Source: an uncultured Bdellovibrionales bacterium (lineage in GTDB: Bacteria; Patescibacteriota; Minisyncoccia; Moranbacterales; UBA1568). Taken from it: a stretch of 37,037 nucleotides of DNA. The DNA is taken from positions 3,521 to 40,557 of the forward strand of contig CAYLMF010000003.1 of the NCBI GenBank assembly GCA_964385005.1, in the 5' to 3' direction. Numbering within the stretch: the stretch's first letter is position 1; every line of letters starts with the position of its first letter. Made by a program: the position numbers and the translations under genes. Positions 8,996 to 36,268 of the stretch are shown in pieces. The notes under the pieces are model-generated. The model had not been told where the DNA came from. It did no database searches and worked only from the letters and a program-made list of their open reading frames with translations.

Positions 8996-9039
8996 GGCGT
9001 TTATTTGCATGTGGACGCTTTAGATAAGCCTTTCTACTA

Positions 9040-9068
9040 TTGACTTATACACAAAAAGGGTGTATAAT
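9040..9068 (+). promoter_or_regulatory. Near-consensus sigma70-type promoter (P2 of the small-gene island)
   Basis: TTGACT (9040-9045), a 17-nt spacer, then TATAAT (9063-9068). The perfect inverted repeat TATACAC-N7-GTGTATA (9046-9066) overlaps the -10 element. The spacer shares CACAAAAAGGG with P1. Confidence 0.65.
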
Positions 9069-9122
9069 ATAAAGTCACAGTAGTAATTTCACTCCTGTCA
9101 CAAAATTCCAAGGGGAATATGA

Positions 9123-9326: not shown

Positions 9327-9351
9327 CTTGAGCCAACGTGCTCACAAAAAG

Positions 9352-9385
9352 GCCGCCCATCGCAACTGCGATTCGGGCGGCTTTT
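9352..9385. terminator. Bidirectional intrinsic terminator shared by the 67-aa gene (+) and the metalloprotease-like gene (-)
   Basis: GCCGCCC (9352-9358) pairs with GGGCGGC (9375-9381), with an inner ATCGC/GCGAT stem. AAAAA lies 5' of the hairpin and TTTT lies 3' of it. Confidence 0.7.
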
Positions 9386-17138: not shown

Positions 17139-17150
17139 TTCTCCAAAAAT

Positions 17151-19516: not shown

Positions 19517-19554
19517 ATTTTATTTTTTCTTATTCAAGTTAACTCAAACCCGCT

Positions 19555-20538
19555 ATGGATTTTCAGCAGTATATCGAAAAGGTAAAACACGGCGCTTACA
19601 AATCTTTTCTCAAAAAAACTCTTGCCCTTGGACTTTCTGTGGAACTTATTTTGCATGAAAAAATTCCTGTTGTAAAAATAACTCATGGAGAGAAAACTCT
19701 TTTTTGCTATGGCAAGGTTCCGCTTTTTCGTAGCATGTGTAATCTCACAAAAAACAAATCTATCACTAAGTTTGTTCTAGAGTCGGTAGGTATTCGAACT
19801 CCAAAAGGTATTGTGACACATTCTTTTGAAGATGGTATTCGTGAGGTGCGTGAAAAAAATCTTACCTACCCTCTTATAAGCAAACCTGTTGATGGTTCAC
19901 TCGCCAAAGGCGTCACCTGGAATATCACTTCTGAAGCTGGCTTACAGGAGGCTATCGAGCATGCATTGGGCGCTTATGGCTATCGAGAAGATATCAAGAT
20001 TCTTGTTGAAGAAATGTTTGTTGGCAATGAATACCGTGTTCTTGTTTTTAATGGCAAGATCCTTTCTTGTGTAGAAAAAATACCAGCAGGTATTACGGGT
20101 GATGGTGAACAATCTATTCAAGATCTTATACATTCTTTTAACAAAACTCGTCGTCATGGCTTTGAGATTAAACTTGATACCGTTGCCAAGGAGACACTCT
20201 CTAAAGCTGGTTACACCCTAAAAACAATTCTCCCAAAAGATTCTTTCTTTAAATTGCGTAATAATCTCAATATGTCTGATGGTGGCCGCTGTATTGAACG
20301 AACAGCCACTATGGATAAAGAGCTTCAAAAAACCTGCGTAAAGGCCGTGGAATCTCTTGGCCTAACCTATGGCGGACTCGACCTTATCACAAACAACATC
20401 TCTCTCCCTGGAGCCCCATACGTTATTCTTGAGGTCAATCCAAACCCTTACTACAATATGCACGAAAAACCTCTTGTAGAGGGCGATGGTATTGATGTAT
20501 CTCTCATACTTCTAAAGTATCTTTTTCCCTCTTTGTAA
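19555..20538 (+). CDS. Stand-alone ATP-grasp ligase resembling the N-terminal ATP-grasp module of cyanophycin synthetase (CphA) / RimK
   Basis: YPLISKPVDGSLAKGV, EEMFVGNEYRVLVFNGKI, GDGEQSIQDLI, NLNMSDGG and VILEVNPNPYYNMH follow the CphA-N / ATP-grasp pattern. Confidence 0.65.
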   Translation: MDFQQYIEKVKHGAYKSFLKKTLALGLSVELILHEKIPVVKITHGEKTLFCYGKVPLFRSMCNLTKNKSITKFVLESVGIRTPKGIVTHSFEDGIREVREKNLTYPLISKPVDGSLAKGVTWNITSEAGLQEAIEHALGAYGYREDIKILVEEMFVGNEYRVLVFNGKILSCVEKIPAGITGDGEQSIQDLIHSFNKTRRHGFEIKLDTVAKETLSKAGYTLKTILPKDSFFKLRNNLNMSDGGRCIERTATMDKELQKTCVKAVESLGLTYGGLDLITNNISLPGAPYVILEVNPNPYYNMHEKPLVEGDGIDVSLILLKYLFPSL

Positions 20539-20603: not shown

Positions 20604-23186
20604 ATGGCTTTATTTAAAAGAAAACGTCGAGTTCATTTCAGCGAAGAGTCTACCCCATCAAAGAACTCTTTCTCTTTCAAGCTTCCTTCTTGGGTTGAAA
20701 GACATCAGAAGCTTCTTTTCCGCATCTTTTTGGGTCTTGTTGGGACTTTTGTGCTTGTTTTAGTCGGGACTTTCCTCTATTTTGCTAAGGACCTTCCTGA
20801 GGCAGGCAATATCAATAAACGCTTTGTTGCTGAATCAACAAAAATCTATGACCGGACTGGACAGCACCTACTCTACGAACTTCATGGTGAAGAAAAGCGC
20901 ACCGTTATTCCTTTTGACCAAATTCCTGAGATTGTCCGTTTTGCCACTATTTCCCTTGAAGATCAGGACTTCTATCATCATTTTGGCCTAAAACCAAGCG
21001 CTATTCTTCGTGCGGCCCTCAAAGACATCATTACTCTTGATGCGGCTCAAGGAGGTTCTACTATCACCCAGCAGTTCGTCAAAAATTCTCTCCTTTCCAA
21101 TGAACGTACAGTTACTCGAAAAATAAAAGAGGCTATTCTTTCTATTGAAATAGAAACACTGTTTACCAAAGATGAGATTCTGGCCATGTACCTGAATGAA
21201 ATTCCTTATGGTCAAAATGCCTATGGCATCGAGGCTGCTGCTCGTACCTATTTCGGCAAATCTGCCAAGGAACTCACTCTCGATGAAGCGGCCCTTCTTG
21301 CCTCTTTGCCTCGTGGTACAGCCTACTATTCCCCTTATGGAAGCCGTCCTGAGCGCCTAACCGCCCGCAAAGAGTATGCTCTCAAACAAATGGCTAAGCT
21401 TGGCTATATCACCGATGAACAAGCAGGGCAAGCTATAGAAACTGATACTCTCAAGAAAATCCTTCCTCAGAAAGATATTATTGCCGCCCCTCACTTTGTC
21501 ATGTATATCAAGGACTATCTTCAGGAAAAATATGGCGATCAATCCATAGAGCAAGGTGGTTATAAGGTAATCACCACTCTTGATTGGGACAAGCAACAAG
21601 CAGCCGAGGAGGCCGTCAGAGAGGGTTCAAAAAACAATGGTACTTGGAGAGCTTCCAATGCTGCTCTTGTAGCTATGGACCCAAAGAATGGTCAGATTTT
21701 AGCTATGGTTGGCTCTAAGGATTATTTTGATGCTTCAATAGATGGTCAAGTCAACGTCGCTATCCGCAACAGACAGCCAGGTTCTTCTTTTAAGCCCTAT
21801 GTCTACCTTACAGCGTTTACCAAGGGCTATCTGCCAGAAACCATGCTCTATGACACAGAGACAGAGTTTGATACAAATGACGGAAAGGTTTATAAACCCC
21901 TCAACTACAACGGGGAGTTCAATGGTCCAATTAGCATGAAGAGGGCCCTCGGAGGATCTCTCAACGTTCCTGCGGTAAAAACCCTCTATCTAGTCGGTGT
22001 CAAAGATTCTATTAAACTTGCTAAAGACCTTGGTATCCAGGGACTCAATGACCCTGATCGTGTAGGACTCTCTCTCGTTTTGGGTGGCGGTGAAGTACAA
22101 CTCCTTGACCATGTAAATGCCTACAGCACACTAGCTACTGGTGGTGTACGTCACGAAAAAACCTCTATTCTAAAGATTGAGGATGCTAGTGGTAACATCC
22201 TTGAAGAGTACCAAGAAAAGCCTGGTGAGCGTGTTGTGGAGGAAAAGTATGTGGCTATGCTTGATTCTATTCTTTCAACTAATGAGAATCGTGCCTGGGT
22301 ATTTGGGGAAAATTCTCCTCTGGCATTCAATTCTCGACCAGTAGCTGCTAAGACTGGTACCACAAATGAATTTCGTGATGGCTGGACGATGGGCTACACT
22401 CCAAACCTTGCAGTAGGTGTTTGGGCTGGAAACAATGACAACAGTCCTATGAAAGAAGGGGCTGATGGTGTCAATGTGGCGGCTCCTATTTGGAGAAAGT
22501 TTATGGACAAAGCACTCTCTAATTACTCTATCGAAAAGTTTCCCGAGTACAAACCAGAAGATGAGATTGGTGATGGTGATAATAAAACCAACAAACCCAT
22601 GCTTTCTGGTGAGCTTGAAGAGGAAAAAGATCTTAAAGTTTGTGAAATTCCAGGTAAAGATACGTATTGTCTAGCCAATAAGTACTGCCCTGATGATAAA
22701 GCAAAGAAAAAAGATTTCGTGAGTGTGCATGACATCCTCCATTATGTTGACCGTCGTGATCCTCGTGGACCAATTCCAGATAAACCAGAGAATGATGGTC
22801 AATATAAAAACTGGGAAGAAAGTGTTAAAAAATGGTACGAGAAGTCTGATAATAAGGACAAGGGGTCATCTGGAAATGTACCGACAAAAGACTGTGAGAA
22901 GGATGATTTCGATAACTTTGAGCCAGATCTAGAGCTCGATGTTCCTTCATCTACAGATTCCTCTACCTTAAAGCTTAGTGTCAAAACAGATGCTCCGTAT
23001 GGGATAAAAAAGGTTACCTACTCAGTAGATGGAGATACAGTAAAGAGCGTGAGTAGCAAACCATATTCTACAGAATACGATATTCCTAACTCAAAAAATA
23101 ATCGCACTATTACTATCAAAGCTGAACTTGAAGATGATAATGGCAATACCACTACTGACAGTAAAGATGTCAGTGTTAGCTTCTAA
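20604..23186 (+). CDS. Class A penicillin-binding protein (glycosyltransferase GT51 + transpeptidase) with a long C-terminal extension
   Basis: It has an N-terminal TM anchor. GT51 motifs are present (SLEDQDFYHHFG, GGSTITQQ), as are transpeptidase motifs (GSSFKP = SxxK, SLN, KTGT). About 220 extra C-terminal residues include a charged linker and an Ig-like beta-rich end. Confidence 0.92.
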   Translation: MALFKRKRRVHFSEESTPSKNSFSFKLPSWVERHQKLLFRIFLGLVGTFVLVLVGTFLYFAKDLPEAGNINKRFVAESTKIYDRTGQHLLYELHGEEKRTVIPFDQIPEIVRFATISLEDQDFYHHFGLKPSAILRAALKDIITLDAAQGGSTITQQFVKNSLLSNERTVTRKIKEAILSIEIETLFTKDEILAMYLNEIPYGQNAYGIEAAARTYFGKSAKELTLDEAALLASLPRGTAYYSPYGSRPERLTARKEYALKQMAKLGYITDEQAGQAIETDTLKKILPQKDIIAAPHFVMYIKDYLQEKYGDQSIEQGGYKVITTLDWDKQQAAEEAVREGSKNNGTWRASNAALVAMDPKNGQILAMVGSKDYFDASIDGQVNVAIRNRQPGSSFKPYVYLTAFTKGYLPETMLYDTETEFDTNDGKVYKPLNYNGEFNGPISMKRALGGSLNVPAVKTLYLVGVKDSIKLAKDLGIQGLNDPDRVGLSLVLGGGEVQLLDHVNAYSTLATGGVRHEKTSILKIEDASGNILEEYQEKPGERVVEEKYVAMLDSILSTNENRAWVFGENSPLAFNSRPVAAKTGTTNEFRDGWTMGYTPNLAVGVWAGNNDNSPMKEGADGVNVAAPIWRKFMDKALSNYSIEKFPEYKPEDEIGDGDNKTNKPMLSGELEEEKDLKVCEIPGKDTYCLANKYCPDDKAKKKDFVSVHDILHYVDRRDPRGPIPDKPENDGQYKNWEESVKKWYEKSDNKDKGSSGNVPTKDCEKDDFDNFEPDLELDVPSSTDSSTLKLSVKTDAPYGIKKVTYSVDGDTVKSVSSKPYSTEYDIPNSKNNRTITIKAELEDDNGNTTTDSKDVSVSF

Positions 23187-23488
23187 GATTTTTCAAAGTC
23201 CCTCTGTGTTAGAATAATATCTTCAAGGTATTCTCCCTCTAAAAGAAGGTTTGTATTTTTTAAAAGCTTTTCTTTTTGAAGATAAATTTCATTGGCCCAT
23301 AGGGATGATTCTGGCCGTACATATATTTTCTTTTCATGTACTCGTAATGGCCGCAAGCTTTCTTCTCCACGCGTACCATATAATTCCTGAATAACCTTTA
23401 AAAAAACAAAGAAGATTGTTTTTTCATCAAGTTCCTTGTTTTTTTGAGGCTTTCTTTTTTGATTAAGAAGATCCTCTAGATTACGCAT
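23183..23488 (-). CDS. DUF721 / DciA-like protein
   Basis: The small size (101 aa), the position immediately after dnaN and the segment LRPLRVHEKKIYVRPESSLWANEIYLQKEKLL (the 'L-V-V-sS-Wa-eL' pattern) fit DUF721. Its start overlaps the end of dnaN by 8 nt. Confidence 0.55.
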   Translation of the reverse strand: MRNLEDLLNQKRKPQKNKELDEKTIFFVFLKVIQELYGTRGEESLRPLRVHEKKIYVRPESSLWANEIYLQKEKLLKNTNLLLEGEYLEDIILTQRDFEKS

Positions 23489-24635
23489 ACTCTTTACGAA
23501 TAGGCATCATAACGTAAACGTACTCTGCTCTATTTTCCTCATTTTCTTCCAATGCTTCAAAAGTCGCTGGACTTGAAGAGGTATTGGCTGAAAAAACAAT
23601 CTTTTTGGAAGAAAAAGCACCCAATCCCTCTAAAAGATACCTTGGATTAAAAATAAGTGTTAATGGACTCGTTCCTTTAAGGAAATCCCCTACCAAAACA
23701 CTGCTATTTTCTCCGATTTCTTGTGATTTAGAAATGACCGTACAGTTTTCTTCTTCTGGATTAAAAATAAGTGCAATTTCACCTGTATTATAAGCTGAGA
23801 GAGTACTTGCTATTTTCAATGACCGCACAAGAGCCTCTTTATCCAAGGCGGCTCTCAAAAGAAAGTCTTTTGGAATAATCTGTTTATAATCAGGAAAACG
23901 ACCATTAATAATACGTGAAACAATCTGTACATTATCAATCTCAAAGAAAAGCTGATGTTCCTCTATAGCAATTTTTAATTCTTCCACTTCTGGTGTTATT
24001 GATCTTGATATTTCTTGCAGTGTGTTAATTGGAATTATAAGACTTTTACTTTCTTCACCATTGAGGACAGTATTTTTTGACTGATTGTACTTCAAAACCT
24101 CTTCAGCGAGACGAAAACTGTCTGTTGCGGCTATAGATAGCTGTTTTTCCTCAAAAAGAAACTGTGCTCCGGTTAGCTCTATACGAGATTCATTGTTACT
24201 GGAACAAAAAAGTAATCTTGAAAGGGCTTGCTTTATCGGTTGAGCTAGTAAAATAACTGGATAATCCTTTTTATACGTAGGAATAATAGGGAAATCTTTA
24301 CCGTCTAAAACCTTAATTTTCATCTCAGAGCTCCCGCTTTTGAGTAAAAGCTGGCTTCCGGTCAACTCTAACTCCAAAACTTCGCCTTGGGGTAAATTTT
24401 GGACAAACTGAGAGAGTATGCGAGCTGGTACAGCAAACTTTCCCTCTTTTTCAATTTTCGCTCCTACAAAAACCATAATACCTATTTCTAGGTTTGTAGC
24501 AGATATTTTGAGACGACCGTTTTCTGACTCAAATAAGAAGTTACTCAAAATAGGCAGTGAGCTTTGCTTCCCTACTACACGATCTAGTGCACTTAGGGCT
24601 TGTGTCAGATTTTCTTGTGTACATATAAGTTTCAT
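23481..24635 (-). CDS. dnaN: DNA polymerase III beta sliding clamp
   Basis: It is 384 aa and lies immediately downstream of dnaA. The N-terminus MKLICTQENLTQALSALDRVV..SLPILSNFLFE and the three-domain length are typical of the clamp. Confidence 0.9.
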   Translation of the reverse strand: MKLICTQENLTQALSALDRVVGKQSSLPILSNFLFESENGRLKISATNLEIGIMVFVGAKIEKEGKFAVPARILSQFVQNLPQGEVLELELTGSQLLLKSGSSEMKIKVLDGKDFPIIPTYKKDYPVILLAQPIKQALSRLLFCSSNNESRIELTGAQFLFEEKQLSIAATDSFRLAEEVLKYNQSKNTVLNGEESKSLIIPINTLQEISRSITPEVEELKIAIEEHQLFFEIDNVQIVSRIINGRFPDYKQIIPKDFLLRAALDKEALVRSLKIASTLSAYNTGEIALIFNPEEENCTVISKSQEIGENSSVLVGDFLKGTSPLTLIFNPRYLLEGLGAFSSKKIVFSANTSSSPATFEALEENEENRAEYVYVMMPIRKEYA

Positions 24636-24876
24636 AGATATTTTTTTAAAAAGAATAGTTATTATATATTAGGGCTGTGGATAACTGGATAAGTCTCTTT
24701 TTTGTTTATACGTAAGCTTTTTTAAGTGAATAAGAACTTATTTTATAAAGTAGATAGTGAGGCAGAATGAGTTAAAAATATATTAGGCAACAAGAGAGAG
24801 TGTTTGTGTTTCTTTTTATCCGAGCGCTCTCCAGGGGTTATCCTCACTATTTCTGGCCTTATACAGAGTTATACAC
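24636..24876. other. Candidate oriC segment in the dnaA-dnaN spacer (DnaA boxes plus AT-rich stretch)
   Basis: A perfect DnaA box lies at 24676-24684 (TGTGGATAA = TTATCCACA on the minus strand). Degenerate boxes follow it: CTGGATAAG directly adjacent, then TTATCCGAG (about 24816) and TTATCCTCA (about 24838). A very AT-rich tract at 24636-24670 lies next to the perfect box. Confidence 0.6.
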
Positions 24877-26319
24877 CTAAGAAATGTAATAGAGACGTTC
24901 TTTTATCTGACTGAGCTCCTCTTTTATTTTAGGAGAAGTTTCTTTTTCTTTATTTATTTTTTCAAAAGCATGGAGAATAGTGGTGTGATCTCTTCCTCCA
25001 AGCATGTCACCAATAGTAGAAAATGGAGTAGAGAGTTCTTGTCTCAAGATGTACATAAGAACCTGTCGTGGATGAGAGATTTCTTTTTTGCGACCCTTTT
25101 TGATAAGATCCTCGTGTTCAACGGAATAGTATTCACAAATAGTACTAAAAACACTCTCAGTACTGATGTTTTTGCGATTTTTTTCTAAAAGTTCAATAAG
25201 AATCTTCTCTGTATTAGCAAGATTGGCTGGTATTTTACGAAAATCACAGTAGGCAATTACTCGATTAAGGGCTCCTTCAAGCTCGCGAACATTCTGGTTG
25301 ATATTTTGAGCGATAAAACGGAGAGCATCCTCATCAATAGAAAGACCCTTCTCTTGAACCTTTGAGCTAAGGATAGCAATACGGGTTTCAAGGCTCGGTT
25401 GGCTAATGTCCGTGATCATACCACCTTCAAAACGTGAACGAAGACGCTCTTCAAGAGTTCCGATAGCTTTTGGTGGACGATCGCTAGAGATAACAATCTG
25501 CTTATTTATCTGATACAAGGCGTTAAAAATATGAAAAAATTCATTCTGAGTCTTTTCTCGGCCGGAAAGGAACTGGACATCATCGATAATTAGGAGGTCC
25601 ATCTGTTGATAGTACTCTTTAAAGATATCAATCTTCTGGTTTTTAATTGAATCAACAAGTTCTGTGGTAAAGCGTTCAGAAGTAATGTATTTGATGCGTT
25701 TTTCTGGATGGTTACGCATAACCTCGTTGCCAATAGACTGGAGGAGGTGGGTTTTTCCGAGGCCGACACCACCATAGATAAACAGTGGATTATAAAGCAT
25801 ACCAAGATTCTGAGAGACAGCGTGACAGGCAGCATGAGCAAGCTCGTTGTTTTCTGCTACGATGTAGTTTTCAAATGTATAGCGAGAATTCAAGCTGCTT
25901 TCATGGAAAACTTCCTTTTGGAGGGAGACAGAAGTGGCCTCTGATGAGAAAGAGGGTTTTTCTATGAGCTTTTTACGTACAAAGCTATTGGTAGTATCGT
26001 GGCTTTCCCCGCGCGGAATAGCAGCATCTATAGAACGGCTAACCGGCTTTGGTTGCTGGCTGGTGTATGGATCAGATAGGGAGATAGTACAGCGAATACT
26101 TTGAATAGTGGGGTTAAGGGTCCGGAGGGCTTTCAGAATATGGGTGTTGTACTTGTTTTCTAGCCACTCCTTCGCAAAACCATTAGGAACACCTATAAGC
26201 GCTTGATTGCCGCTTATCTCTAAAAGATTCGTGTTTTTGAACCAGGTAATAAAGTTGGCTTTCGAAAGAGAAAGTTCAATTTGGCCAAGGACAGCCTTCC
26301 AGAGTTCATCGTTAGTCAT
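24877..26319 (-). CDS. dnaA: Chromosomal replication initiator DnaA
   Basis: It has an AAA+ Walker A motif (GGVGLGKTHLL), a Walker B motif (LLIIDDVQFL), sensor motifs, and a C-terminal DNA-binding domain (PRQVLMYILRQELSTPFSTIGDMLGGRDHTTILHA). Confidence 0.95.
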   Translation of the reverse strand: MTNDELWKAVLGQIELSLSKANFITWFKNTNLLEISGNQALIGVPNGFAKEWLENKYNTHILKALRTLNPTIQSIRCTISLSDPYTSQQPKPVSRSIDAAIPRGESHDTTNSFVRKKLIEKPSFSSEATSVSLQKEVFHESSLNSRYTFENYIVAENNELAHAACHAVSQNLGMLYNPLFIYGGVGLGKTHLLQSIGNEVMRNHPEKRIKYITSERFTTELVDSIKNQKIDIFKEYYQQMDLLIIDDVQFLSGREKTQNEFFHIFNALYQINKQIVISSDRPPKAIGTLEERLRSRFEGGMITDISQPSLETRIAILSSKVQEKGLSIDEDALRFIAQNINQNVRELEGALNRVIAYCDFRKIPANLANTEKILIELLEKNRKNISTESVFSTICEYYSVEHEDLIKKGRKKEISHPRQVLMYILRQELSTPFSTIGDMLGGRDHTTILHAFEKINKEKETSPKIKEELSQIKERLYYIS

Positions 26320-26354
26320 AGAGGATTTCGTATCAGGTGACTAAAATTATAGCA

Positions 26355-26414
26355 TGTGGATAACTGAAATACGAGCCTTTTTAAAGCAATAATTGGTGCA
26401 CAACCTGTGGATAA
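26355..26414. promoter_or_regulatory. Two perfect DnaA boxes upstream of dnaA (autoregulation and/or second oriC half)
   Basis: TGTGGATAA occurs at 26355-26363 and again at 26406-26414, in the same orientation, inside the divergent dnaA / rpmH spacer. Confidence 0.7.
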
Positions 26415-26435
26415 GTAAAATAAGACACAGGGTAG

Positions 26436-26463
26436 TTGACTTTTCTGGCTTTTCTGCTACAAT
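26436..26463 (+). promoter_or_regulatory. Candidate promoter of the rpmH-rnpA-yidC-jag operon
   Basis: TTGACT (26436-26441), a 16-nt spacer, then TACAAT (26458-26463). It lies 34 nt upstream of the rpmH ATG. Confidence 0.55.
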
Positions 26464-26497
26464 CTAGAGACATTTTGCACTAGCAACCATTTCATAT

Positions 26498-26635
26498 ATG
26501 AAAAGAACATATCAGCCAAAAACTCGCAAAAGAGCTCGCCGTCATGGCTTTCTTAAACGCGCCAGCACTCCAGGAGGACGCAATGTCTTGCTTTCACGTC
26601 GCCGCAAGGGACGCTCAAAGCTTACAGCTGTTTAG
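26498..26635 (+). CDS. rpmH: 50S ribosomal protein L34
   Basis: It is not in the ORF track because it is under 60 aa. Hand translation gives [45 protein letters not shown], the canonical L34 sequence. It occupies the canonical position between dnaA and rnpA. Confidence 0.93.
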
Positions 26636-26643
26636 GAGAATCT

Positions 26644-26973
26644 ATGCTCAAAAAATCCTTTAGATTAAGGAGAAAAGAAGATTTTACAAGGGTTTTTCGT
26701 TCCGGAAAGCCTCTTTTTTTTAAGCCTTTTGGCTGTAAAATCATTCAAAATGATGCCGGTAATGATCGTTTCGGTTTTTCATTTAGCAAAAAGCACCTAA
26801 AAAAAGCAGTTGGACGCAATCGTTTACGCCGCAGAATAAGTGCTCTTTATCTAAAAGAAGAGTATAATTTTAAAGGTAAGGATATTGTTTTTTTTACTAC
26901 TGAACCCATTCAGAAGATTGAAAAGACGAGTTTAGAAGCCTTTCTTAAAAAAATAAATGATCTTGTTAGCTAA
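26644..26973 (+). CDS. rnpA: Ribonuclease P protein component
   Basis: It is a small basic protein directly after rpmH. It has an RNR-like basic motif (NRLRRR), and AGGAG lies 6 nt before the ATG. Confidence 0.85.
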   Translation: MLKKSFRLRRKEDFTRVFRSGKPLFFKPFGCKIIQNDAGNDRFGFSFSKKHLKKAVGRNRLRRRISALYLKEEYNFKGKDIVFFTTEPIQKIEKTSLEAFLKKINDLVS

Positions 26974-26979
26974 AAACCT

Positions 26980-27720
26980 ATGTTAGAGCTCTTTCATGTA
27001 GCTATTTATCAGCCCATCTATAATTCCCTCATCTTTTTTTATAACGTCCTGCCAGGAGCTGATTTTGGTTTTGCCATTATAGTAACAACGCTTCTTTTGA
27101 AGTTTCTTATGATACCGCTTTCTCAGAAGCAAATAGAATCTCAGCGAAAAATGCAGTTGATACAGCCAAAAATTAAGGAGCTTCAAGCGAAGTATAAGGA
27201 TAGAAAAGAAGAGCAAACAAAGGCTCTTTTGGAACTCTATAAGACAGAAAAGGTCAATCCATTCGCTGGTTGTTTGCCGATGCTGTTACCGCTTATTTTT
27301 CTACTCGCTTTTTATCAGGTGATTATTAATATTTCTAAGTCTCATTTTACCCTTCATGGAGCGGATCTTTATACGTTTGTAGCTAATCCAGGTACGGTAA
27401 ATCATCTGTTTTTTTCAATCGTAGACCTTTCTCAACCAAGCTATGTGCTCGCTATTCTCTCAGCTGTGGTGCTGTATTTCCAAATGAAGGAAATGATGTC
27501 AAACCAAGGAACAGATAAAAAAATTGATTGGTCAGCCAAGGAACCGGATTTTACTGCTATAATGAGTAAGCAGATGCTCTATGTTGGACCGGGTATGACA
27601 CTTTTTATCGGCTTCACCTTTCCAGCTGCCCTATCGCTCTATTGGTTTGTTTCGACGGTATTTGCGTATATCCAACAGAAAATAGTTTTTCTTAAAGCTG
27701 AAAAAGTGAAAAGTGTATGA
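26980..27720 (+). CDS. yidC: Membrane protein insertase YidC (short form)
   Basis: The position after rnpA fits. GFAIIVTTLLLKFLMIPLSQKQ, QPKIKELQAKYKD and the conserved NPFAGCLPMLL are typical YidC/Oxa1 motifs. Confidence 0.9.
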   Translation: MLELFHVAIYQPIYNSLIFFYNVLPGADFGFAIIVTTLLLKFLMIPLSQKQIESQRKMQLIQPKIKELQAKYKDRKEEQTKALLELYKTEKVNPFAGCLPMLLPLIFLLAFYQVIINISKSHFTLHGADLYTFVANPGTVNHLFFSIVDLSQPSYVLAILSAVVLYFQMKEMMSNQGTDKKIDWSAKEPDFTAIMSKQMLYVGPGMTLFIGFTFPAALSLYWFVSTVFAYIQQKIVFLKAEKVKSV

Positions 27721-31258: not shown

Positions 31259-32521
31259 ATGATTTTGTTGCTGTGCTATTTTTATCTTCTTTTACCCTTT
31301 AATTTTGCTCTAAACCCGACGCCATCGATTGATTTGCCGGTAGTGCGGTTGCTGATTATAGGTTTGTTTTTCTTTTTTGTAGCAGGAAGTCTGCTGAGAA
31401 AAAGATTTTTTATGAATATCTCATTTCCAATTCTCGCCCTTTTGGCATGGTTTTTTTGGGGAGGGATTTCATACATGTGGTCTCTCGATCCAAGTTGGTC
31501 ATATAGAAAAATCTTTTTTTTGGCTAACTTCTTACTCTTCTTTTTTGTTCTACTGGGACAAAAAGCAGATTTTTTGAGAAAAATCTTAAAATGGTATGTA
31601 TTTGGGGCAGTAAGCATAGCGGTAATAGCTGTTTTTCAGAGTCTTTCTCAGATTTTTGTTGAGCCGGGGGTAGTGCTGCATTTTTGGACAGAAAAAATCC
31701 TTCCATTTTTTCTTGGAAGTAATTTTTCTTCTTCAGTGGCCACCTATCCGAGTCTATTGGCAAATGTAGGAGGAAAAACGTATCTACGAGCCACGGGTCT
31801 GTTTCCAGATCCACACATCTTTAGTTATTATGTGGCTATGGCTTTGCCATTTGGAGTACTTTATTGGAAAAAAAGAATTTTTTTGAGTTGGTCGCATATA
31901 GGGATACTTTTCTTATCTGTGGGTTTTCTCCTTTCTTTTTCTCGTGGAGGCTACGTGGCCATAACACTTTGTTTTTTTTGGTTTCTTGTACTTTCATTTT
32001 TTTCACACAAAAAACAAAAGATAGCTCTACTTACGGTCGTAACAGGGATCTTTTTTATGGCCATGCTTATTTCTCCTATAGGCACGCGCTTTGTCTCAAG
32101 CTTTATAGCGGGTGACGGTTCACGAAGCGAGCGCCTTGAGCTCGCCTATCAGGCGGTAGAGGCCATAAAAGAACGGCCGTTTTTGGGTGTAGGTATTGGC
32201 AATTATCCTCTTTGGGTAAAGCCCGAGGCAGAGGCAAGGGAGCCGATTTATGCGCACAATATGTATCTTGATATAGCTACAGAGCTTGGTCTTTTGGGAC
32301 TTATCCTTTTCTTGATTGCTCTTTTTGGGGCCCTTTGGGCAAGTTTTAGGAAATGGTACTCTACAGATGACGCTTCTTATCTTGCTGCCCATATGGCATT
32401 GGTTTATTTTTTTGGGCATGGCTTTTTCGAAGCTCCCATCTTCTCTATCCATGTTTTACCGGTTTTTCTTTTATTAGTAGCCTTTTGTTTTGCAAAAAAT
32501 GATGATCGAGAATACCTATGA
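31259..32521 (+). CDS. O-antigen ligase / polymerase-like membrane protein (Wzy_C family)
   Basis: It is polytopic (about 10-12 TM helices). The Wzy_C-type loop region includes SFSRGGYVAI and HNMYLDIATELGLLGL. Confidence 0.7.
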   Translation: MILLLCYFYLLLPFNFALNPTPSIDLPVVRLLIIGLFFFFVAGSLLRKRFFMNISFPILALLAWFFWGGISYMWSLDPSWSYRKIFFLANFLLFFFVLLGQKADFLRKILKWYVFGAVSIAVIAVFQSLSQIFVEPGVVLHFWTEKILPFFLGSNFSSSVATYPSLLANVGGKTYLRATGLFPDPHIFSYYVAMALPFGVLYWKKRIFLSWSHIGILFLSVGFLLSFSRGGYVAITLCFFWFLVLSFFSHKKQKIALLTVVTGIFFMAMLISPIGTRFVSSFIAGDGSRSERLELAYQAVEAIKERPFLGVGIGNYPLWVKPEAEAREPIYAHNMYLDIATELGLLGLILFLIALFGALWASFRKWYSTDDASYLAAHMALVYFFGHGFFEAPIFSIHVLPVFLLLVAFCFAKNDDREYL

Positions 32522-33723
32522 ATCTATTGATTAGCATTTTTTCATTAGCAGTCTTTTCCCACTTTTTGGCTTTGGAAAAACTTATGGTTGGGAGTATACC
32601 GTTCTATGCCCTAGAGATTGTTTTTCTTGGTTTAGGAGCTGTTCTTTTGAAGGAAAAACTCAGTCCAAACGAAAGAAGTATAGATAAAGGCGTACTTTTG
32701 GGGGTAGTATGTATACTACTTGGTGCTCTATTTTCTACACTGCTTCATCCCTGGGAAAGTACAGAGCTTGGTAGGTTGAAATCTTGGTTTCTTTTTCCGA
32801 CGGCGTATTTCCTAGTAGGAATATACTTTCTTTCGTATCAAAAAAGACTCTCTCTTTGGGTAAGTTGGTTTTTTGGGAGCTCGGTTATTGCCTGGGCAGC
32901 TCTCTACGGGTATTTTCGAGAGTATATCACGTATGATAACCGTCTTGCTTTCCCATACACATCGCCAAATTTTTTGGCTTACTTAGTAATTCCGAGTGTT
33001 CTTATTGGTTTTTTTCTTTTAAGGAGTGTATCTGGATGGATGCGAGGAGGAGTCTTATTTCTCATGGTGACGAGTTTTTTTGTTTTGTATCAAACTCATT
33101 CGTACAATAGCTGGCTAGCTCTTTTGGGTGCATTGGGGATAGTTTTTCTTGGTGGAGTATGTATAGAGAAAAAGAAACCGTCTGTTAAGGTTTTGTTGAC
33201 CGCTGGGTCTATTTTTATTATGCTCATGGGCTCGCTTGCAGTAATTGAGAGCAATAATGCCAAATGGACGAATATTTTTGAACAAAGCGGACGCTCCTCA
33301 CTTGATTCTCGAGTGATGATTTGGCAGTCCGCACTGGCTATAGGTAGGGATCATCCTCTAAATGGTATAGGCGTAGGAAATTTTCAAGAAGTATACCTTC
33401 TGTATCAAAATAAATTTCCACCCTATCTTGAGTGGGCAGTACCGCAGCCACATAATTTTATTTTAGCGGTTTGGCTGCAAACGGGACTCCTGGGACTTTT
33501 GGGGATAGGTATCCTTTTGGGTAGATTGGGAATGCTCTTTTTTTATAGGGTGAGAGAAAATAACTCTACACTAAAGACAGAATATCTCTTGATTATTGCT
33601 CTTTGGGTAAGTTTTTTCTTCTATGGAGCGTTTGATACGCCATACTTTAGAAATGATCTCGCATTTTTGTTTTGGATACAGGTGCTCTTGACCTATATGT
33701 ACAGTTTACGTAACGAACATTGA
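32518..33723 (+). CDS. Second O-antigen ligase / polymerase-like membrane protein (Wzy_C family)
   Basis: It is polytopic and overlaps the upstream stop by 4 nt. QTHSYNSWLALLGAL, RVMIWQSALAI..HPLNGIGVGNF and PHNFILAVWLQTGLLGL fit the family. Confidence 0.7.
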   Translation: MNLLISIFSLAVFSHFLALEKLMVGSIPFYALEIVFLGLGAVLLKEKLSPNERSIDKGVLLGVVCILLGALFSTLLHPWESTELGRLKSWFLFPTAYFLVGIYFLSYQKRLSLWVSWFFGSSVIAWAALYGYFREYITYDNRLAFPYTSPNFLAYLVIPSVLIGFFLLRSVSGWMRGGVLFLMVTSFFVLYQTHSYNSWLALLGALGIVFLGGVCIEKKKPSVKVLLTAGSIFIMLMGSLAVIESNNAKWTNIFEQSGRSSLDSRVMIWQSALAIGRDHPLNGIGVGNFQEVYLLYQNKFPPYLEWAVPQPHNFILAVWLQTGLLGLLGIGILLGRLGMLFFYRVRENNSTLKTEYLLIIALWVSFFFYGAFDTPYFRNDLAFLFWIQVLLTYMYSLRNEH

Positions 33724-33725
33724 GG

Positions 33726-34868
33726 CTAGAGATCTATTTTGTAGAGCCTACCGGTCTGTCTATCTGTAAAAAAGAGGGAATCTTCCTTGGGTGAAAGTTT
33801 GAGGTCGGTGCTATCAAAAGACTGGTTGATATCTGAAAGTTCAAGAATACGAGTGCTCTTGCCAGTAGACAGGTCAATTTGCCAAAAAGTATCTTGAGAG
33901 GCAAGATTTTTTCCGTAGTAATCATTTGGCAGGGTAGCGTTATCTAGTCCTCCTGGAAGTGCATAGAACAGTCTGTTGTTATCTTTAGACCATACGACTT
34001 TGGAGATAAAGGTCGGTATGGTCAGGGCTTGAAATTGGCCACCGGACTTATTGATAATGCCAAGAGTGAGGGGTGTACCTTTTTGAGCGCTTGAGCTGAC
34101 GAGTACCTTTTCGCCATTTGGAGACCACAAGTAGTCTCCACCAAAACGTCCCTTAAATATAGGGGCACCTTTTTTTGTCTCAGAGTCAAAAGTGGTAAAA
34201 ATAGATTCCTCTAGTGCATTCGGCTTATTCCAGAGAGAAACACTATTTGACTGCGGGACAGCCTCTAGAAAGTATTCTTTTTTATCAACACTGGCGATCT
34301 CTTTCCACTCATTGCCATCCGGATTGGCCTTGTTGAGTGAGGATTCCCCAGAAGCATTTTTGAAAAGATAGTAGATTTTATCACCGAGGTTATTCCAGGT
34401 TACACGAGTAATTTCTGGCTTGAGAGGCGTGAGTGTTTTTGTGGAAAAAACAACTAGGTGCCAGCGTGGATACGGAGAGTTTTCGAGAAGCACTAAGGCC
34501 GAATCATTTTTTGGTGACCAGACAACACGCAGTACTTTGGCAGGCAGGTTACTAAGAAGAGTGCTTTTGTCTTTTCCTTCAAGCGTAGCCTTTTTGAAAG
34601 CTTTGTCATCATGTGAGTAGTAGTAGATGCTGCCATCGCTTGCAACAGTAGCGGTGAGGATATTCTCGTTAATAGGGTTTTCTACAGAGCTTGCTGGATT
34701 GATAGGTGTAGCTTTGCCAAAGCCATCTGAGCTGGTATCGGAGTCTTCTTTTTTGGCTTCGGGCGAAGTAGCATCATTGATATTGGTTTTGAATGCAAAA
34801 TTATAGGCCAACAAAAAAATAATGACCAAAAGAAAAAGAGCAAGAGATGAGTAAAACAGTTTTTTCAT
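33726..34868 (-). CDS. Membrane-anchored TolB-like beta-propeller (PD40/WD40-like repeats) protein
   Basis: An N-terminal TM anchor (LFYSSLALFLLVIIFLLAY) is followed by repeated W-SP-g/D-k-i-Y units (VVWSPKNDSALVL, YLWSPNGEKVLV, VVWSKDNNRLFY). The track start is a TTG at 34889. The ATG at 34868 lies 10 nt after the upstream stop. Confidence 0.6.
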   Translation of the reverse strand: MKKLFYSSLALFLLVIIFLLAYNFAFKTNINDATSPEAKKEDSDTSSDGFGKATPINPASSVENPINENILTATVASDGSIYYYSHDDKAFKKATLEGKDKSTLLSNLPAKVLRVVWSPKNDSALVLLENSPYPRWHLVVFSTKTLTPLKPEITRVTWNNLGDKIYYLFKNASGESSLNKANPDGNEWKEIASVDKKEYFLEAVPQSNSVSLWNKPNALEESIFTTFDSETKKGAPIFKGRFGGDYLWSPNGEKVLVSSSAQKGTPLTLGIINKSGGQFQALTIPTFISKVVWSKDNNRLFYALPGGLDNATLPNDYYGKNLASQDTFWQIDLSTGKSTRILELSDINQSFDSTDLKLSPKEDSLFFTDRQTGRLYKIDL

Positions 34869-34878
34869 GAAGATTTTA

Positions 34879-36201
34879 CTACGGTCCAATGAATTTTACG
34901 TGAAAATGAGCGCCGCTACTGTAGGTATACTGTCTAAAAGGAGCTACCTGAGAACAAGCCGGTCGATTAGAGGCTTCATTGACAAGTTGAAGTCCTGGCG
35001 TGCTTCCAACTGCTGCACAAAGGGCATCCCAACGAGGATCGTGTAGAGGTAGAGAGGTGCTGAGTCCGATATCAGCACAGTTACCAGAATCAGCATTACC
35101 AGATTTGTGACAATTGCTTTGAGATCCTCCGGTACGTATAGAGGAAGTAACATATATATCAAGACCCGAACGCTGCTTGAGCTGTATGAGGCGATCAGCA
35201 ATATCTTTGCATATCTGGTTAGCTGAACTTCCGGTCAGTCTTTTACCGAGACCAGAAGGAATGCTTACTATACCTCCAGCACAGGGTCGAGTGCTTCCAG
35301 TAGCCCCAGCTCCCCCGGTTCCGCCACTACCTCCACTACCACTGCTGGCATCTGGCTGTAAGGCAAGTGGCTGAAAGCGTGTGATATTAAGCTTTACAAG
35401 ATCTGGATTGATGACGTAGAGGATAAGGTAGGCAACAAGGGCTAAAGCAAGGCCAAAAAGAGCCCCTTCGATAGTGTGCTTGGCTGCACTGAGAGCCGAA
35501 GTATTGCCGGCGCTTGTAAGATACTGGAAGCCTCCAATAACAAGCATAAAGACTGCTCCGATAACAACAAGAACCATACCGAGGATATAAATTCCCTCTA
35601 GGTAGGCTTGAAAACTACTGGCATCTTTTATAAAGGGTACGTTTTCAAGTGGTATATAATCGGTGCTTACATTGACATTACCTACACTGCTTAAAGAAGA
35701 GGTTGATAGAGAGCCCGTTTCAGCAGCTGTAGGTGTGTCATTAGATACACAGCATGGAGTATCTGCTTCAGCACAAACACCAGCATATTTTTCAGTAGCA
35801 CTATCACAACTTGATTTGCAAGTGCCTCCGTAGCTGCCGCCACTGGCCTTGGGGAGTGTGCACGTGCTATCACGATACATAGCCTCACCAACCAATGGCT
35901 GAGAAACTGTTGACCCAGCAGGTGTGCAACAAGAATAATCGAGATCACTCCAGTCCCCACCAGTCTCACCACAATAGCCTTTAAATACTTTTCCTCCAGT
36001 ACAACCATCACTCTCCCCAAGGCCTAGAGAGCTAAAATCAATAGCTATGTATTGGCAATCTCCACCAAATCCTCCTTCAGTGGCTGATTTTTCACAGATA
36101 CTTTCACTAATAATCGGATAGGTAGGGTCTGCAGCCAAAGCAACAGGAATGCTTATTTGAAAAAGAAGGGTAGCAAGAAAAAGAGATTTTTTTATAGACA
36201 T
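34879..36201 (-). CDS. Secreted multidomain protein: Cys-rich repeats + CPR-type T4SS pilin-like (TrbC/VirB2-like) two-TM module + Gly/Ser linker + M15/LAS-type peptidase-like domain
   Basis: It begins with a signal peptide (SLFLATLLFQISIPVALA). Two 6-Cys modules follow, each ending in CC. The pilin-like core is IYILGMVLVVIGAVFMLVIGGFQYLTSAGNTSALSAAKHTIEGALFGLALALVAYLILYVINP. After the linker SGSGGSGGTGGAGATGS, the C-terminal YVTSSIRTGG...CHKSGNADSGNCADI...GAHFHV resembles the Peptidase_M15 pattern (SxHxxGxAxD ... HxH). Confidence 0.65.
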   Translation of the reverse strand: MSIKKSLFLATLLFQISIPVALAADPTYPIISESICEKSATEGGFGGDCQYIAIDFSSLGLGESDGCTGGKVFKGYCGETGGDWSDLDYSCCTPAGSTVSQPLVGEAMYRDSTCTLPKASGGSYGGTCKSSCDSATEKYAGVCAEADTPCCVSNDTPTAAETGSLSTSSLSSVGNVNVSTDYIPLENVPFIKDASSFQAYLEGIYILGMVLVVIGAVFMLVIGGFQYLTSAGNTSALSAAKHTIEGALFGLALALVAYLILYVINPDLVKLNITRFQPLALQPDASSGSGGSGGTGGAGATGSTRPCAGGIVSIPSGLGKRLTGSSANQICKDIADRLIQLKQRSGLDIYVTSSIRTGGSQSNCHKSGNADSGNCADIGLSTSLPLHDPRWDALCAAVGSTPGLQLVNEASNRPACSQVAPFRQYTYSSGAHFHVKFIGP

Positions 36202-36231
36202 ATTTTTGTATCAGTATTTGTAGTATATCAT

Positions 36232-36268
36232 AAAAAGCCTCTTGCTTTGAAAAAAGTAGAGGCTTTTT
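36232..36268 (-). terminator. Intrinsic terminator downstream of the RNR beta gene
   Basis: AAAAAGCCTCT (36232-36242) pairs with AGAGGCTTTTT (36258-36268). On the minus strand the hairpin is followed by a T-run, and it lies 26 nt after the stop at 36294. Confidence 0.7.

What the first reader, a model, noticed from the sequence alone, without database searches (positions are those of the whole stretch)
34879..36201. Pilin-like protein carrying extracellular Cys-rich repeats and an M15/LAS peptidase-like domain
One polypeptide combines five parts, in this order:
1. A signal peptide.
2. Two 6-Cys modules, each ending in a CC doublet (..DCQ..GCT..YCG..SCC.. and ..TCT..TCK..SCD..VCA..PCC..).
3. 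A Ser/Thr-rich spacer.
4. The two-helix TrbC/VirB2-like 'T4SS pilin' module that is abundant in CPR genomes.
5. A Gly/Ser linker and a C-terminal domain with SxxR-x-GG, H-x5-D and HxH motifs, reminiscent of D-Ala-D-Ala carboxypeptidase / endolysin-type M15 peptidases.

If the topology follows VirB2, with both termini outside, then both the Cys-rich and the peptidase domains face the exterior. A surface filament or anchor subunit that displays a cell-wall hydrolase would be an attractive tool for an episymbiont to breach or remodel a host's or its own wall. I do not know of a characterised example.
Basis: partly seen in the sequence, partly recalled or inferred. Interest (0 to 1): 0.7.

Follow-up and report, generated by a model that had tools for sequence, protein, structure and literature searches.

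The report
Pilin-anchored cell-wall peptidase in CPR
This gene from an ultra-small (CPR/Patescibacteria) bacterium joins a conjugation-pilin-like membrane hairpin to an outward-facing zinc peptidase domain of the type that cuts bacterial cell walls. In relatives the same hairpin carries interchangeable wall-cutting domains beside a type IV secretion ATPase, an arrangement I could not find described.

Summary
ORF 34879-36201 (minus strand, 440 aa) has, in order: a signal peptide, two homologous 6-Cys modules, a Ser/Thr spacer, a two-helix pilin-like hairpin, a Gly/Ser linker and a C-terminal domain.

The C-terminal domain matches no Pfam M15 model. However, a high-confidence AlphaFold model (pLDDT 91.8) matches only LAS-fold zinc peptidases (MepA, VanXY, LdcB, Hedgehog-N, phage M15).

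The real catalytic motif is C364-H365...C375-A-D377...E409...H432-x-H434, which is 94-100% conserved over 146 homologues (H432 75%).

The hairpin scores below the PF18895 cut-off (18.7 against 26.6 bits), but 16 of 17 homologues match that model.

New context:
- 137 of 149 representatives of this LAS subfamily carry the hairpin.
- At the same locus near oriC, relatives carry other LAS types, lysozyme-like domains or NlpC/P60 domains.
- A 98%-identical genome has the C-terminal cassette cleanly replaced.
- 20 of 80 related loci have a VirB4-like ATPase just upstream. This window has none.

Best reading: a membrane-tethered, outward-facing peptidoglycan peptidase that does a VirB1-like job next to a VirB2-like anchor. 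Display on a pilus filament remains possible but untested.

The parts
34879..36201 (-). Whole gene, 440 aa: a pilin-hairpin protein with N-terminal Cys-rich modules and a C-terminal LAS peptidase domain
   Evidence: ORF list and translation. Homologues were found in CPR genomes; one is named 'pilin [Candidatus Moranbacteria]'.
36222..36251 (-). Promoter-like site (TTCAAA-18-TATACT with TG) about 20 nt upstream of the ATG
   Evidence: Consensus scan. This is weak evidence only.
36133..36201 (-). Signal peptide, residues 1-23 (MSIKKSLFLATLLFQISIPVALA|AD)
   Evidence: Read from the sequence. There is a hydrophobic peak at residues 14-16. The same layout is seen in all aligned homologues.
35914..36114 (-). 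Cys-rich module 1, residues 30-96 (C36, C49, C67, C77, C91, C92)
   Evidence: Cys positions. Repeat homology with module 2.
35737..35880 (-). Cys-rich module 2, residues 108-155 (C114, C128, C132, C143, C150, C151)
   Evidence: The Cys-rich N-terminal part (signal peptide plus both Cys modules) is the fastest-evolving part: 39% aa identity to the L089 lineage, where neighbouring genes are 91-95%.
35659..35736 (-). Ser/Thr-rich spacer, residues 156-181
   Evidence: Composition: 43% S+T measured over residues 154-181. pLDDT is below 50 in the full-length model.
35392..35658 (-). Pilin-like module, residues 182-270. It comprises the Y-x-P-L-E motif, helix 1 (about 203-225), the loop TSAGNTS...AK(241) and helix 2 (about 244-264) ending in INPDL.
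   Evidence: Pfam PF18895 at E 0.0018; 16 of 17 homologues match. Invariant residues are Y182, L185, E186, P189, M219, G223, Y227, K241, G250, A254 and I264-N265-P266. The AF2 model shows a helical hairpin.
35284..35391 (-). Flexible linker, residues 271-306, with a Gly/Ser-rich core
   Evidence: Composition. pLDDT is below 50 for residues 275-304.
34882..35283 (-). LAS-fold zinc-peptidase-like domain, residues 307-440, with six Cys
   Evidence: AF2 model with pLDDT 91.8 and pTM 0.87. Foldseek PDB: MepA at E 1e-4 and probability 1.0, then VanXY, LdcB and Hedgehog-N. Foldseek viral: M15/M15A peptidases. The profile aligns with the Shh H141/D148/E177 motifs.
35107..35109 (-). Codon of H365, the predicted first zinc ligand. 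It is preceded by the invariant C364.
   Evidence: 146 of 146 conserved. Aligns with the Shh 'SLH' motif.
35071..35073 (-). Codon of D377, the predicted second zinc ligand, in the motif G-x-C375-A-D377-I
   Evidence: 146 of 146 conserved. Aligns with the Shh 'GRAVDI' motif.
34975..34977 (-). Codon of E409, the predicted general base, in the motif N-E-A-S
   Evidence: 143 of 146 conserved. Aligns with Shh E177.
34900..34908 (-). Codons of H432-F-H434. H434 is the predicted third zinc ligand.
   Evidence: H434 is conserved in 137 of 146 and H432 in 109 of 146. The motif lies on the last beta-strand of the model.
34869..35364 (-). Exchangeable C-terminal cassette, running from about codon 280 to 10 nt past the stop codon
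   Evidence: Against locus L003, DNA is 97.7% identical up to this block. There is no similarity within it. Identity is 98.7% again from the next gene's start codon. The two cassettes occur on two different N-terminal backbones.
33726..34868 (-). Conserved downstream partner, 380 aa: an N-terminal membrane anchor plus a beta-propeller-like domain. The true start is ATG 34868, 10 nt after the pilin gene's stop.
   Evidence: The start is fixed by alignment to gene calls in L003. Pfam hits are weak: DUF5050 and PD40. A homologue lies within 300 nt downstream of 64 of 108 pilin-module ORFs.

Best explanation
The gene encodes a Sec-exported surface protein held in the membrane by a VirB2/T4SS_pilin-type helical hairpin, with both ends outside.

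The N-terminal end carries two fast-evolving, disulfide-rich modules, probably for binding or targeting. The C-terminal end hangs on a flexible linker of about 35 residues and carries a disulfide-stabilised LAS-fold zinc peptidase. Its predicted zinc ligands are H365, D377 and H434, with E409 and H432 as catalytic helpers. This domain most likely cuts peptide stems or cross-links of peptidoglycan close to where the hairpin sits.

In the wider clade the hairpin is a carrier for interchangeable wall-lytic cassettes and sits at the end of a VirB4 operon. The most likely job is therefore local opening of the cell wall for the CPR type IV secretion/pilin apparatus, that is, a VirB1-like function built onto a VirB2-like anchor.

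Shown here: the architecture, the fold, conservation of the catalytic set, the cassette exchange, the synteny, and the VirB4 linkage in relatives.
Inferred: topology, zinc binding, catalytic activity, substrate, and the link to a T4SS in this particular genome.
For: - Architecture.
- LAS fold from a high-confidence model.
- Conservation over 146 domains: C364, H365, C375 and D377 at 100%, E409 at 98%, H434 at 94%. This argues for selection on catalysis.
- Residue-level alignment to Hedgehog H141/D148/E177.
- 137 of 149 representatives of this domain family also carry the pilin module.
- Among 108 pilin-module ORFs in 88 related loci, 92 have C-terminal extensions of at least 130 aa. By clustering these are about 55 LAS-like (one 10-member cluster only tentatively so), 18 lysozyme/SLT-like and 2 NlpC/P60-like. 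The common denominator is peptidoglycan cleavage.
- A VirB4-like ATPase (P-loop_TraG 8e-27) lies 2-6 kb upstream on the same strand in 20 of 80 loci. In several of these the only pilin-module gene is a decorated one.
- A published survey notes that most Patescibacteria with VirB2-like pilins lack VirB1 (PMC12102498).
- The organism makes its own peptidoglycan: a class A PBP is encoded at 20604-23186.
- All 18 Cys lie in the predicted outside segments.
Against: - No VirB4, VirB6 or coupling protein lies within this 37-kb window or within 10 kb in the closest relatives. There an RNR operon sits upstream instead.
- The query's own PF18895 score is below the curated cut-off.
- A profile of the hairpin finds no solved conjugative pilin by sequence.
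- No enzymatic or localisation data exist.
- A clean cassette swap between 98%-identical genomes, together with a hypervariable N-terminal part, looks more like a host- or phage-facing molecule than a housekeeping assembly factor.
Confidence: 0.5

Rival explanations
1. Enzyme-armed pilus. The hairpin polymerises as a major or minor subunit of a conjugative-type pilus. Both decorated termini lie on the filament surface, so the filament carries wall-lytic domains and binding modules to the host cell and helps the episymbiont breach the host wall.
For: - The hairpin family is the one taken as VirB2-like pilins of Patescibacteria, whose pilin arrays are essential in S. epibionticum (PMC12102498, PMC10633639, PMC12857230).
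- K241 in the inter-helix loop is invariant, as expected for a lipid-binding lumen loop. This is inference.
- Bare pilins sit next to decorated ones in several related loci, for example L054, L056, L064, L067, L078 and L087. That fits a major-plus-minor pilin scheme.
- The cassette swap and the hypervariable N-terminal modules fit a host-facing molecule.
- There is a precedent for enzymatic filaments: flagellinolysin (PMC5595980).
Against: - The mature protein is about 417 aa, against roughly 70-120 aa for known conjugative pilins (own knowledge). About 295 extra residues per subunit would be hard to pack if it were the major subunit.
- There is no bare pilin and no T4SS gene in this window.
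- No sequence match to solved conjugative pilins was found.
- No multimer modelling was possible.
Confidence: 0.2
2. Plain housekeeping autolysin. The hairpin is only a membrane anchor, and the protein remodels the cell's own wall during growth or division, independently of any secretion system.
For: - The locus is vertically conserved next to envelope genes: Wzy x2, GT2 x2, a flippase and YidC, and in this window also a class A PBP, near oriC.
- In this lineage no T4SS gene is nearby.
- Membrane-anchored LAS peptidases such as VanY/LdcB-type enzymes are ordinary wall-maturation enzymes (own knowledge; structural hits).
Against: - Housekeeping enzymes rarely have their catalytic domain replaced by a different subfamily, or by a different enzyme class, at the same locus between close relatives.
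- The anchor is specifically the pilin module in 137 of 149 family representatives rather than a generic helix.
- In relatives the gene is the distal part of a VirB4 operon.
Confidence: 0.2
3. Non-catalytic binder. The LAS domain has lost or never had peptidase activity, as argued for animal Hedgehog N-domains. It serves to bind a peptidoglycan peptide or another ligand, so the protein acts as an adhesin.
For: - The best sequence-profile matches are Hedgehog N-domains (E about 0.01).
- H432 is replaced in about 25% of family members and H434 in 6%.
Against: - The full ligand set and the Glu are retained in the query, and H365, D377 and E409 are retained almost universally.
- Sister cassettes at the same locus are lysozyme-like and NlpC/P60-like enzymes. 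This points to catalysis as the shared role.
Confidence: 0.1

Closest known systems
VirB2-like pilins of Patescibacteria (Pfam T4SS_pilin, PF18895), including the essential pilin array of Southlakia epibionticum (PMC10633639, PMC12102498)
   Same: Both have a signal peptide, two hydrophobic helices joined by a short loop with a basic residue, and a restriction to CPR. In relatives the gene lies downstream of a VirB4-like ATPase near dnaA, as that survey reports for Paceibacteria.
   Different: This protein is 440 aa, with about 155 extra residues before the hairpin and about 170 after it, the latter including an enzyme domain. Its own HMM score is below the curated cut-off. No T4SS gene lies in this window. 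The papers I could read do not mention enzyme-bearing pilins.
VirB1-type wall hydrolases of monoderm T4SSs: PrgK of pCF10, TraG of pIP501, TcpG and CD419 (as cited in PMC12102498)
   Same: These are membrane-anchored, extracytoplasmic peptidoglycan hydrolases encoded in T4SS operons. Their catalytic classes vary between systems (SLT, CHAP/NlpC-P60, M23), which mirrors the cassette variety seen here.
   Different: The anchor here is a pilin-type hairpin rather than a single N-terminal helix. The catalytic domain is LAS-fold. There is no sequence homology to the VirB1/TrsG/CD419 families, which were not tested directly; Pfam shows no SLT or CHAP in the query.
LAS zinc peptidases: E. coli MepA (M74; PDB 1u10/1tzp), VanXY/VanY/LdcB (M15) and the Hedgehog N-terminal domain
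   Same: The fold is shared (Foldseek E 1e-4 to 5e-2, probability 0.8-1.0). So is the H...D...H ligand pattern with a Glu, as in VanX and Hedgehog. Like MepA, it is an exported domain with several Cys.
   Different: No Pfam M15, M74 or HH_signal hit was found for the query. There are 11 residues between H and D instead of 6. About 22 residues, including a short helix, lie between the Glu and HxH instead of 3. An invariant Cys pair (C364, C375) brackets the H-D loop. The domain is almost always fused to the pilin hairpin.
Flagellinolysin, a proteolytic flagellin (PMC5595980)
   Same: It shows the concept of a filament subunit carrying a metallopeptidase domain on the outer surface of the polymer.
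   Different: It belongs to a different filament system and a different peptidase clan, and its enzyme domain is inserted mid-chain. For the present protein, polymerisation is unproven.
Polymorphic toxin / C-terminal cassette-swap systems (CDI, Rhs)
   Same: A conserved N-terminal delivery or anchor part is joined to a sharply delimited, exchangeable C-terminal domain. The same cassette is found on diverged backbones.
   Different: No immunity gene travels with the cassette: the next gene is 98.7% identical from its start codon. The cassettes are wall hydrolases of related function rather than diverse toxins. No orphan cassettes are present in the window.

Membership tests
Pfam T4SS_pilin (PF18895) | Own HMM score at or above the gathering score of 26.6 bits | tested here: not met
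   18.7 bits, E 0.0018, residues 201-264.
Pfam T4SS_pilin (PF18895) | Clear homology of the hairpin to proteins that do match the model | tested here: met
   Sixteen of 17 aligned homologues match at E<=0.01, the best at 8e-9. The hairpin is 31-86% identical to those of 16 sampled family members. A hairpin HMM built from these finds the query at 1e-44.
Conjugative VirB2/TrbC/TraA pilins | A signal peptide followed by two hydrophobic helices with a short loop containing a basic residue | tested here: met
   Hydropathy peaks, AF2 helices 197-229 and 234-264, and an invariant K241 in the loop.
Conjugative VirB2/TrbC/TraA pilins | A small mature subunit, roughly 70-120 aa | tested here: not met
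   The mature protein is about 417 aa. The size range is from my own knowledge.
Conjugative VirB2/TrbC/TraA pilins | Encoded in a T4SS gene cluster with VirB4 | tested here: not met
   There is none in the 37-kb window. It is met in 20 of 80 related loci.
Conjugative VirB2/TrbC/TraA pilins | Sequence or structure similarity to solved pilins | tested here: inconclusive
   The hairpin profile against PDB sequences gave no pilin hit. The full-length model is of low confidence and returned only MepA.
Conjugative VirB2/TrbC/TraA pilins | Polymerises into a pilus | not testable with these tools
   This needs multimer modelling or microscopy.
LAS-fold zinc peptidase superfamily | The LAS fold | tested here: met
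   The model has pLDDT 91.8. The top 17 PDB hits and the top viral hits are LAS enzymes.
LAS-fold zinc peptidase superfamily | Conserved H-x(n)-D and C-terminal H zinc ligands plus a catalytic His/Glu | tested here: met
   H365 and D377 are conserved in 146 of 146, H434 in 137 of 146 and E409 in 143 of 146. They align with Shh H141, D148 and E177.
LAS-fold zinc peptidase superfamily | Ligand geometry around a zinc ion, and peptidase activity | not testable with these tools
No experiment was possible.
Pfam Peptidase_M15 families (VanY, M15_3, M15_4 and others), Peptidase_M74 and HH_signal | An HMM match | tested here: not met
   The query domain has no hit at E<=10. Sister cassettes give only sub-threshold hits to HH_signal and Peptidase_M15_4.
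Polymorphic toxin systems | An exchangeable C-terminal cassette on a conserved N-terminal part | tested here: met
Polymorphic toxin systems | A cognate immunity gene that is exchanged together with the cassette | tested here: not met
   The downstream gene is 98.7% identical from its start codon.

The most novel reading that the evidence does not exclude
In Moranbacteria/Paceibacteria, the 'pilins' of the essential but functionally unexplained CPR type IV secretion system are mostly carriers of exchangeable cell-wall-degrading enzymes. These proteins assemble into, or at the tip of, a conjugative-type filament. This creates an enzymatically armed pilus that drills through the host's wall, or the cell's own wall, to establish the epibiotic connection. 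The fast-evolving Cys-rich modules would set host specificity.
Probability: 0.17. Interest if true: 0.85.

Novelty: new variant of a known kind. Interest (0 to 1): 0.66.

Why it matters
Patescibacteria (CPR) keep a type IV secretion system with VirB2-like pilins. It is essential in the one species tested, yet its role is described as completely unknown (PMC11665869, PMC10633639). A survey also noted that most such genomes lack a VirB1 wall hydrolase (PMC12102498).

This finding gives a concrete, testable idea. In one large CPR clade the pilin hairpin itself carries the wall-cutting domain, and that domain is swapped like a cassette between close relatives.

It also defines a LAS peptidase subfamily that current Pfam models miss: about 250 clusters at 50% identity, almost all fused to the hairpin.

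If the enzyme acts on the host wall, it would be a direct handle on how ultra-small episymbionts breach their hosts. If it acts on the cell's own wall, it explains the missing VirB1.

Tried and rejected
- Pfam and NCBIfam on the whole protein and on the isolated C-terminal domain gave no M15/LAS family hit.
- phmmer of the whole protein against PDB sequences matched only artificial Gly/Ser linkers.
- The word-indexed homologue search with the C-terminal domain alone returned a single protein. With the Cys-rich region it returned none. The exhaustive HMMER search was needed instead.
- Foldseek with the full-length, low-confidence model (pLDDT 61.8) gave only MepA and noise. It said nothing about the hairpin or the Cys modules.
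- The hairpin profile against PDB sequences found no conjugative pilin.
- A search for silent or orphan cassettes in the window found none.
- A search for a second pilin-module gene in the window found none.
- The idea that the downstream gene is an immunity protein was rejected, because it is not exchanged with the cassette.
- The cassette's GC content (0.49 against 0.42 for the window) is only mildly different and is not used as evidence.
- The search for related loci with the C-terminal alignment failed for lack of a conserved stretch.
- Several literature searches failed for technical reasons. The novelty claim therefore rests on five papers read in part and on my own knowledge.
Full report
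**Observation**

Reading the translation confirms all five parts:
- a signal peptide, residues 1-23, with cleavage at A-L-A|AD
- two 6-Cys modules: C36/49/67/77/91/92 and C114/128/132/143/150/151
- a Ser/Thr-rich spacer, residues 154-181, 43% S+T
- two strongly hydrophobic helices at about 203-225 and 244-264
- a Gly/Ser-rich linker, residues 271-306
- a C-terminal domain of about 134 residues with six further Cys

The two Cys modules are true repeats. A profile of module 1 built from homologues finds module-2 sequences at E 6e-13 to 1e-5, and hhalign gives 93.8% probability.

All 18 cysteines lie in the parts predicted to be outside the cell. None lies in the signal peptide, the hairpin or the linkers.

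**The pilin-like part**

Pfam T4SS_pilin (PF18895) matches residues 201-264 at E 0.0018 with 18.7 bits. This is below the curated 26.6 bits.

Homologues settle the question. Thirty relatives were found, one of them named 'pilin [Candidatus Moranbacteria]' at 62% identity. Sixteen of 17 aligned relatives match PF18895, the best at E 8e-9.

The module is very conserved. The pattern is Y-x-P-L-E..P, FMLVIGG.xY.TSAGNTS...AK, then LYVINPDL, with an invariant K241 in the loop.

I could not link it to solved conjugative pilins. A profile of the hairpin finds none in the PDB by sequence. The full-length model is too poor to test the fold (pLDDT 61.8).

So it is a member of the CPR 'T4SS_pilin' family by transitive homology. 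Its likeness to VirB2 itself rests on the family's annotation, not on a test made here.

**The C-terminal domain**

No Pfam or NCBIfam model recognises it, even at E<=10.

An exhaustive profile search of 1.84 billion representatives found 252 relatives at E<=1e-3.

With 48 of these as the alignment, AlphaFold gave a confident model: pLDDT 91.8 and pTM 0.87.
- Foldseek against the PDB returned only LAS-fold zinc peptidases in the top 17. These were E. coli MepA (E 1e-4, probability 1.0, TM 0.5-0.64), VanXYc/g, LdcB, Sonic/Indian Hedgehog N-domains and VldE.
- Against viral models it returned M15/M15A peptidases and tape-measure lysin domains.
- The family profile's best PDB sequence matches are Hedgehog N-domains (E about 0.01). 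The alignment puts sCH on SLH (Shh H141), GnCaDI on GRAVDI (D148) and nEAs on YES (E177).

Conservation over 146 domains:

| Residue | Conserved |
|---|---|
| C364 | 100% |
| H365 | 100% |
| C375 | 100% |
| D377 | 100% |
| G373 | 99% |
| E409 | 98% |
| H434 | 94% |
| H432 | 75% |

The real motif is H365-x11-D377 ... E409 ... H432-x-H434.

The fold and the ligand set therefore support a LAS-type peptidase. Membership of the Pfam M15 families was tested and is not met.

**Topology**

This is inference. A cleavable signal peptide puts the Cys-rich modules outside. Two membrane helices then return the chain to the outside, so the linker and the LAS domain are also outside. The invariant cysteines in the LAS domain fit an oxidising, extracytoplasmic location. 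Charge counts around the helices are not decisive.

**What the relatives show**

This is the main new result.

1. The LAS subfamily is almost always fused to the hairpin.
   - 137 of the 149 best representatives carry the hairpin.
   - Most of the rest are fragments.

2. The hairpin carries different C-terminal domains in different relatives.
   - I examined 88 related loci, mostly Moraniibacteriota, Paceibacteria, Sungiibacteriota and 'Patescibacteria group'. They hold 108 hairpin ORFs.
   - 92 ORFs have extensions of at least 130 aa.
   - Clustering gives four LAS-like groups with 31, 12, 10 and 2 members (the 10-member group only tentatively LAS-like), two lysozyme/SLT-like groups with 10 and 8, NlpC/P60-like with 2, several unknown types and 14 bare pilins.
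   - The query's LAS type and the largest LAS group are remote homologues: hhalign 93.9%, E 1.5e-7.

3. The locus is conserved. The order is pilin-X, then a membrane-anchored beta-propeller-like protein of about 380 aa, then Wzy x2, GT2 x2, a flippase, Jag, YidC, RnpA and dnaA.
   - The partner lies within 300 nt downstream of 64 of the 108 hairpin ORFs.
   - In the window the partner starts at ATG 34868, 10 nt after the stop codon. It does not start at the TTG given in the ORF list.

4. The C-terminal part behaves as a cassette.
   - A genome whose flanks are 97.7-98.7% identical in DNA has a block of about 496 nt with no similarity at all. The block runs from codon ~280 to just before the next gene. 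It encodes a different LAS type.
   - Each of the two cassettes occurs at 96% identity on two N-terminal backbones that are only 53-57% identical to each other.
   - Against a lineage whose housekeeping genes are 91-95% identical, the LAS part is 96% identical, the hairpin 83% and the Cys-rich part only 39%. The neighbouring Wzy polymerases are 61-68%.
   - The Cys-rich modules are therefore the fast-evolving, presumably exposed part.

5. The family is linked to a T4SS.
   - In 20 of 80 loci a VirB4-like ATPase lies 2-6 kb upstream on the same strand. Its Pfam hits are P-loop_TraG 8e-27, AAA_10 and TraC_F_IV.
   - A secreted protein of about 940 aa with no Pfam match lies directly upstream of the pilin in 28 loci.
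   - A coupling protein is present in 3 loci.
   - This matches the published report that Paceibacteria T4SS clusters lie near dnaA (PMC12102498).
   - In this window and its closest relatives these genes are absent, and an RNR operon sits upstream instead.

**Mechanism**

The simplest account of all this is a membrane-tethered, outward-facing peptidoglycan peptidase.

Three observations fit a 'make a hole in the wall here' function, as VirB1-type enzymes provide in other T4SSs:
- the catalytic class is interchangeable across relatives (peptidase, muramidase-like, NlpC/P60)
- the tether is short, about 35 residues
- in relatives the gene sits at the end of a VirB4 operon

A recent survey found that most Patescibacteria with VirB2-like pilins lack VirB1. 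A hydrolase built onto the pilin would explain that.

I put about 0.5 on this reading. The peptidase claim is stronger than the T4SS link for this particular genome.

Rivals:
- An enzyme-armed pilus aimed at the host wall (0.2). It is attractive because of the cassette swapping, the hypervariable modules and the bare pilins next to decorated ones in some loci. It is unsupported by any evidence of polymerisation and is awkward sterically.
- A plain autolysin (0.2).
- A non-catalytic binder (0.1).

**Comparison with what is known, and novelty**

The hairpin family and its abundance in CPR are known (PMC12102498; 10.1101/2025.04.23.650224). LAS peptidases and VirB1 hydrolases are known.

I did not find the following described in the papers I could read:
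- the fusion of the two
- a LAS subfamily that is invisible to Pfam and nearly exclusive to the hairpin
- clean cassette exchange at a conserved locus

Several literature searches failed technically, so prior description cannot be excluded. Pfam's adjacent entries T4SS_pilin (PF18895) and SLT_3 (PF18896) suggest that curators had seen pilin-lysozyme proteins; this is my inference.

I rate it a new variant of a known kind, with interest 0.66.

Noticed in passing
window 33726-34889: The ORF list starts the downstream gene at TTG 34889, overlapping the pilin gene by 11 nt. Alignment to gene calls in relatives puts the real start at ATG 34868 (MKKLFYSS..., 380 aa), 10 nt after the pilin stop. The product is a membrane-anchored beta-propeller-like protein (weak DUF5050/PD40 hits). 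It accompanies pilin-X genes in 64 of 108 cases.
   Followed up: partly
window 31259-33723, compared with L089: The two Wzy_C (O-antigen-ligase-like) genes are only 61-68% identical between lineages whose flippase, YidC and partner genes are 91-95% identical. They are a second fast-evolving surface determinant next to the pilin gene.
   Followed up: no
window 22000-27000: GC skew changes sign near dnaN (23481-24635) and dnaA (24877-26319), with yidC and jag on the other side. The window therefore spans the replication origin.
   Followed up: no
window 7750-9385: A stretch of about 1.6 kb has only small ORFs (85 aa or less). It has no Rfam family at gathering score, and there is no tRNA anywhere in the window.
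   Followed up: partly
window 16482-20538: A cluster encodes a 7TM_transglut membrane protein, an ATPgrasp_ST protein with a Zn_protease domain, a DUF3541 protein and a RimK-like ATP-grasp protein. This looks like a peptide-ligase/modification system.
   Followed up: no
L033 64-2883; L007 6855-9965; 28 loci in all: A family of secreted proteins of about 940-1036 aa with no Pfam match lies directly upstream of the pilin genes and downstream of VirB4 in relatives. It is a candidate unrecognised T4SS component and is absent from the window.
   Followed up: partly
L009-L088 record titles: Many MAGs with Moranbacteria-type synteny and proteins are titled 'uncultured Bdellovibrionales' or 'Gammaproteobacteria'. 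These are probably taxonomic mislabels in the TPA assemblies.
   Followed up: no
L081 9854-10249 and 9886-11187: Two overlapping pilin-module ORFs lie in different frames, a bare form and an SLT-carrying form. This may be a frameshift, either a sequencing error or a way to make both forms.
   Followed up: no
P0124 (1826 aa) and P0130 (1464 aa): Two giant proteins match the LAS-A profile but lack the pilin module. P0124 has 13 matched stretches, which may be a Cys-rich repeat artefact.
   Followed up: no
window 12032-13804: A PilB/GspE-type ATPase (T2SSE, E 3e-111) is present. The genome therefore also encodes type IV pilus or type II secretion machinery, which is distinct from the T4SS-type pilin discussed here.
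   Followed up: no
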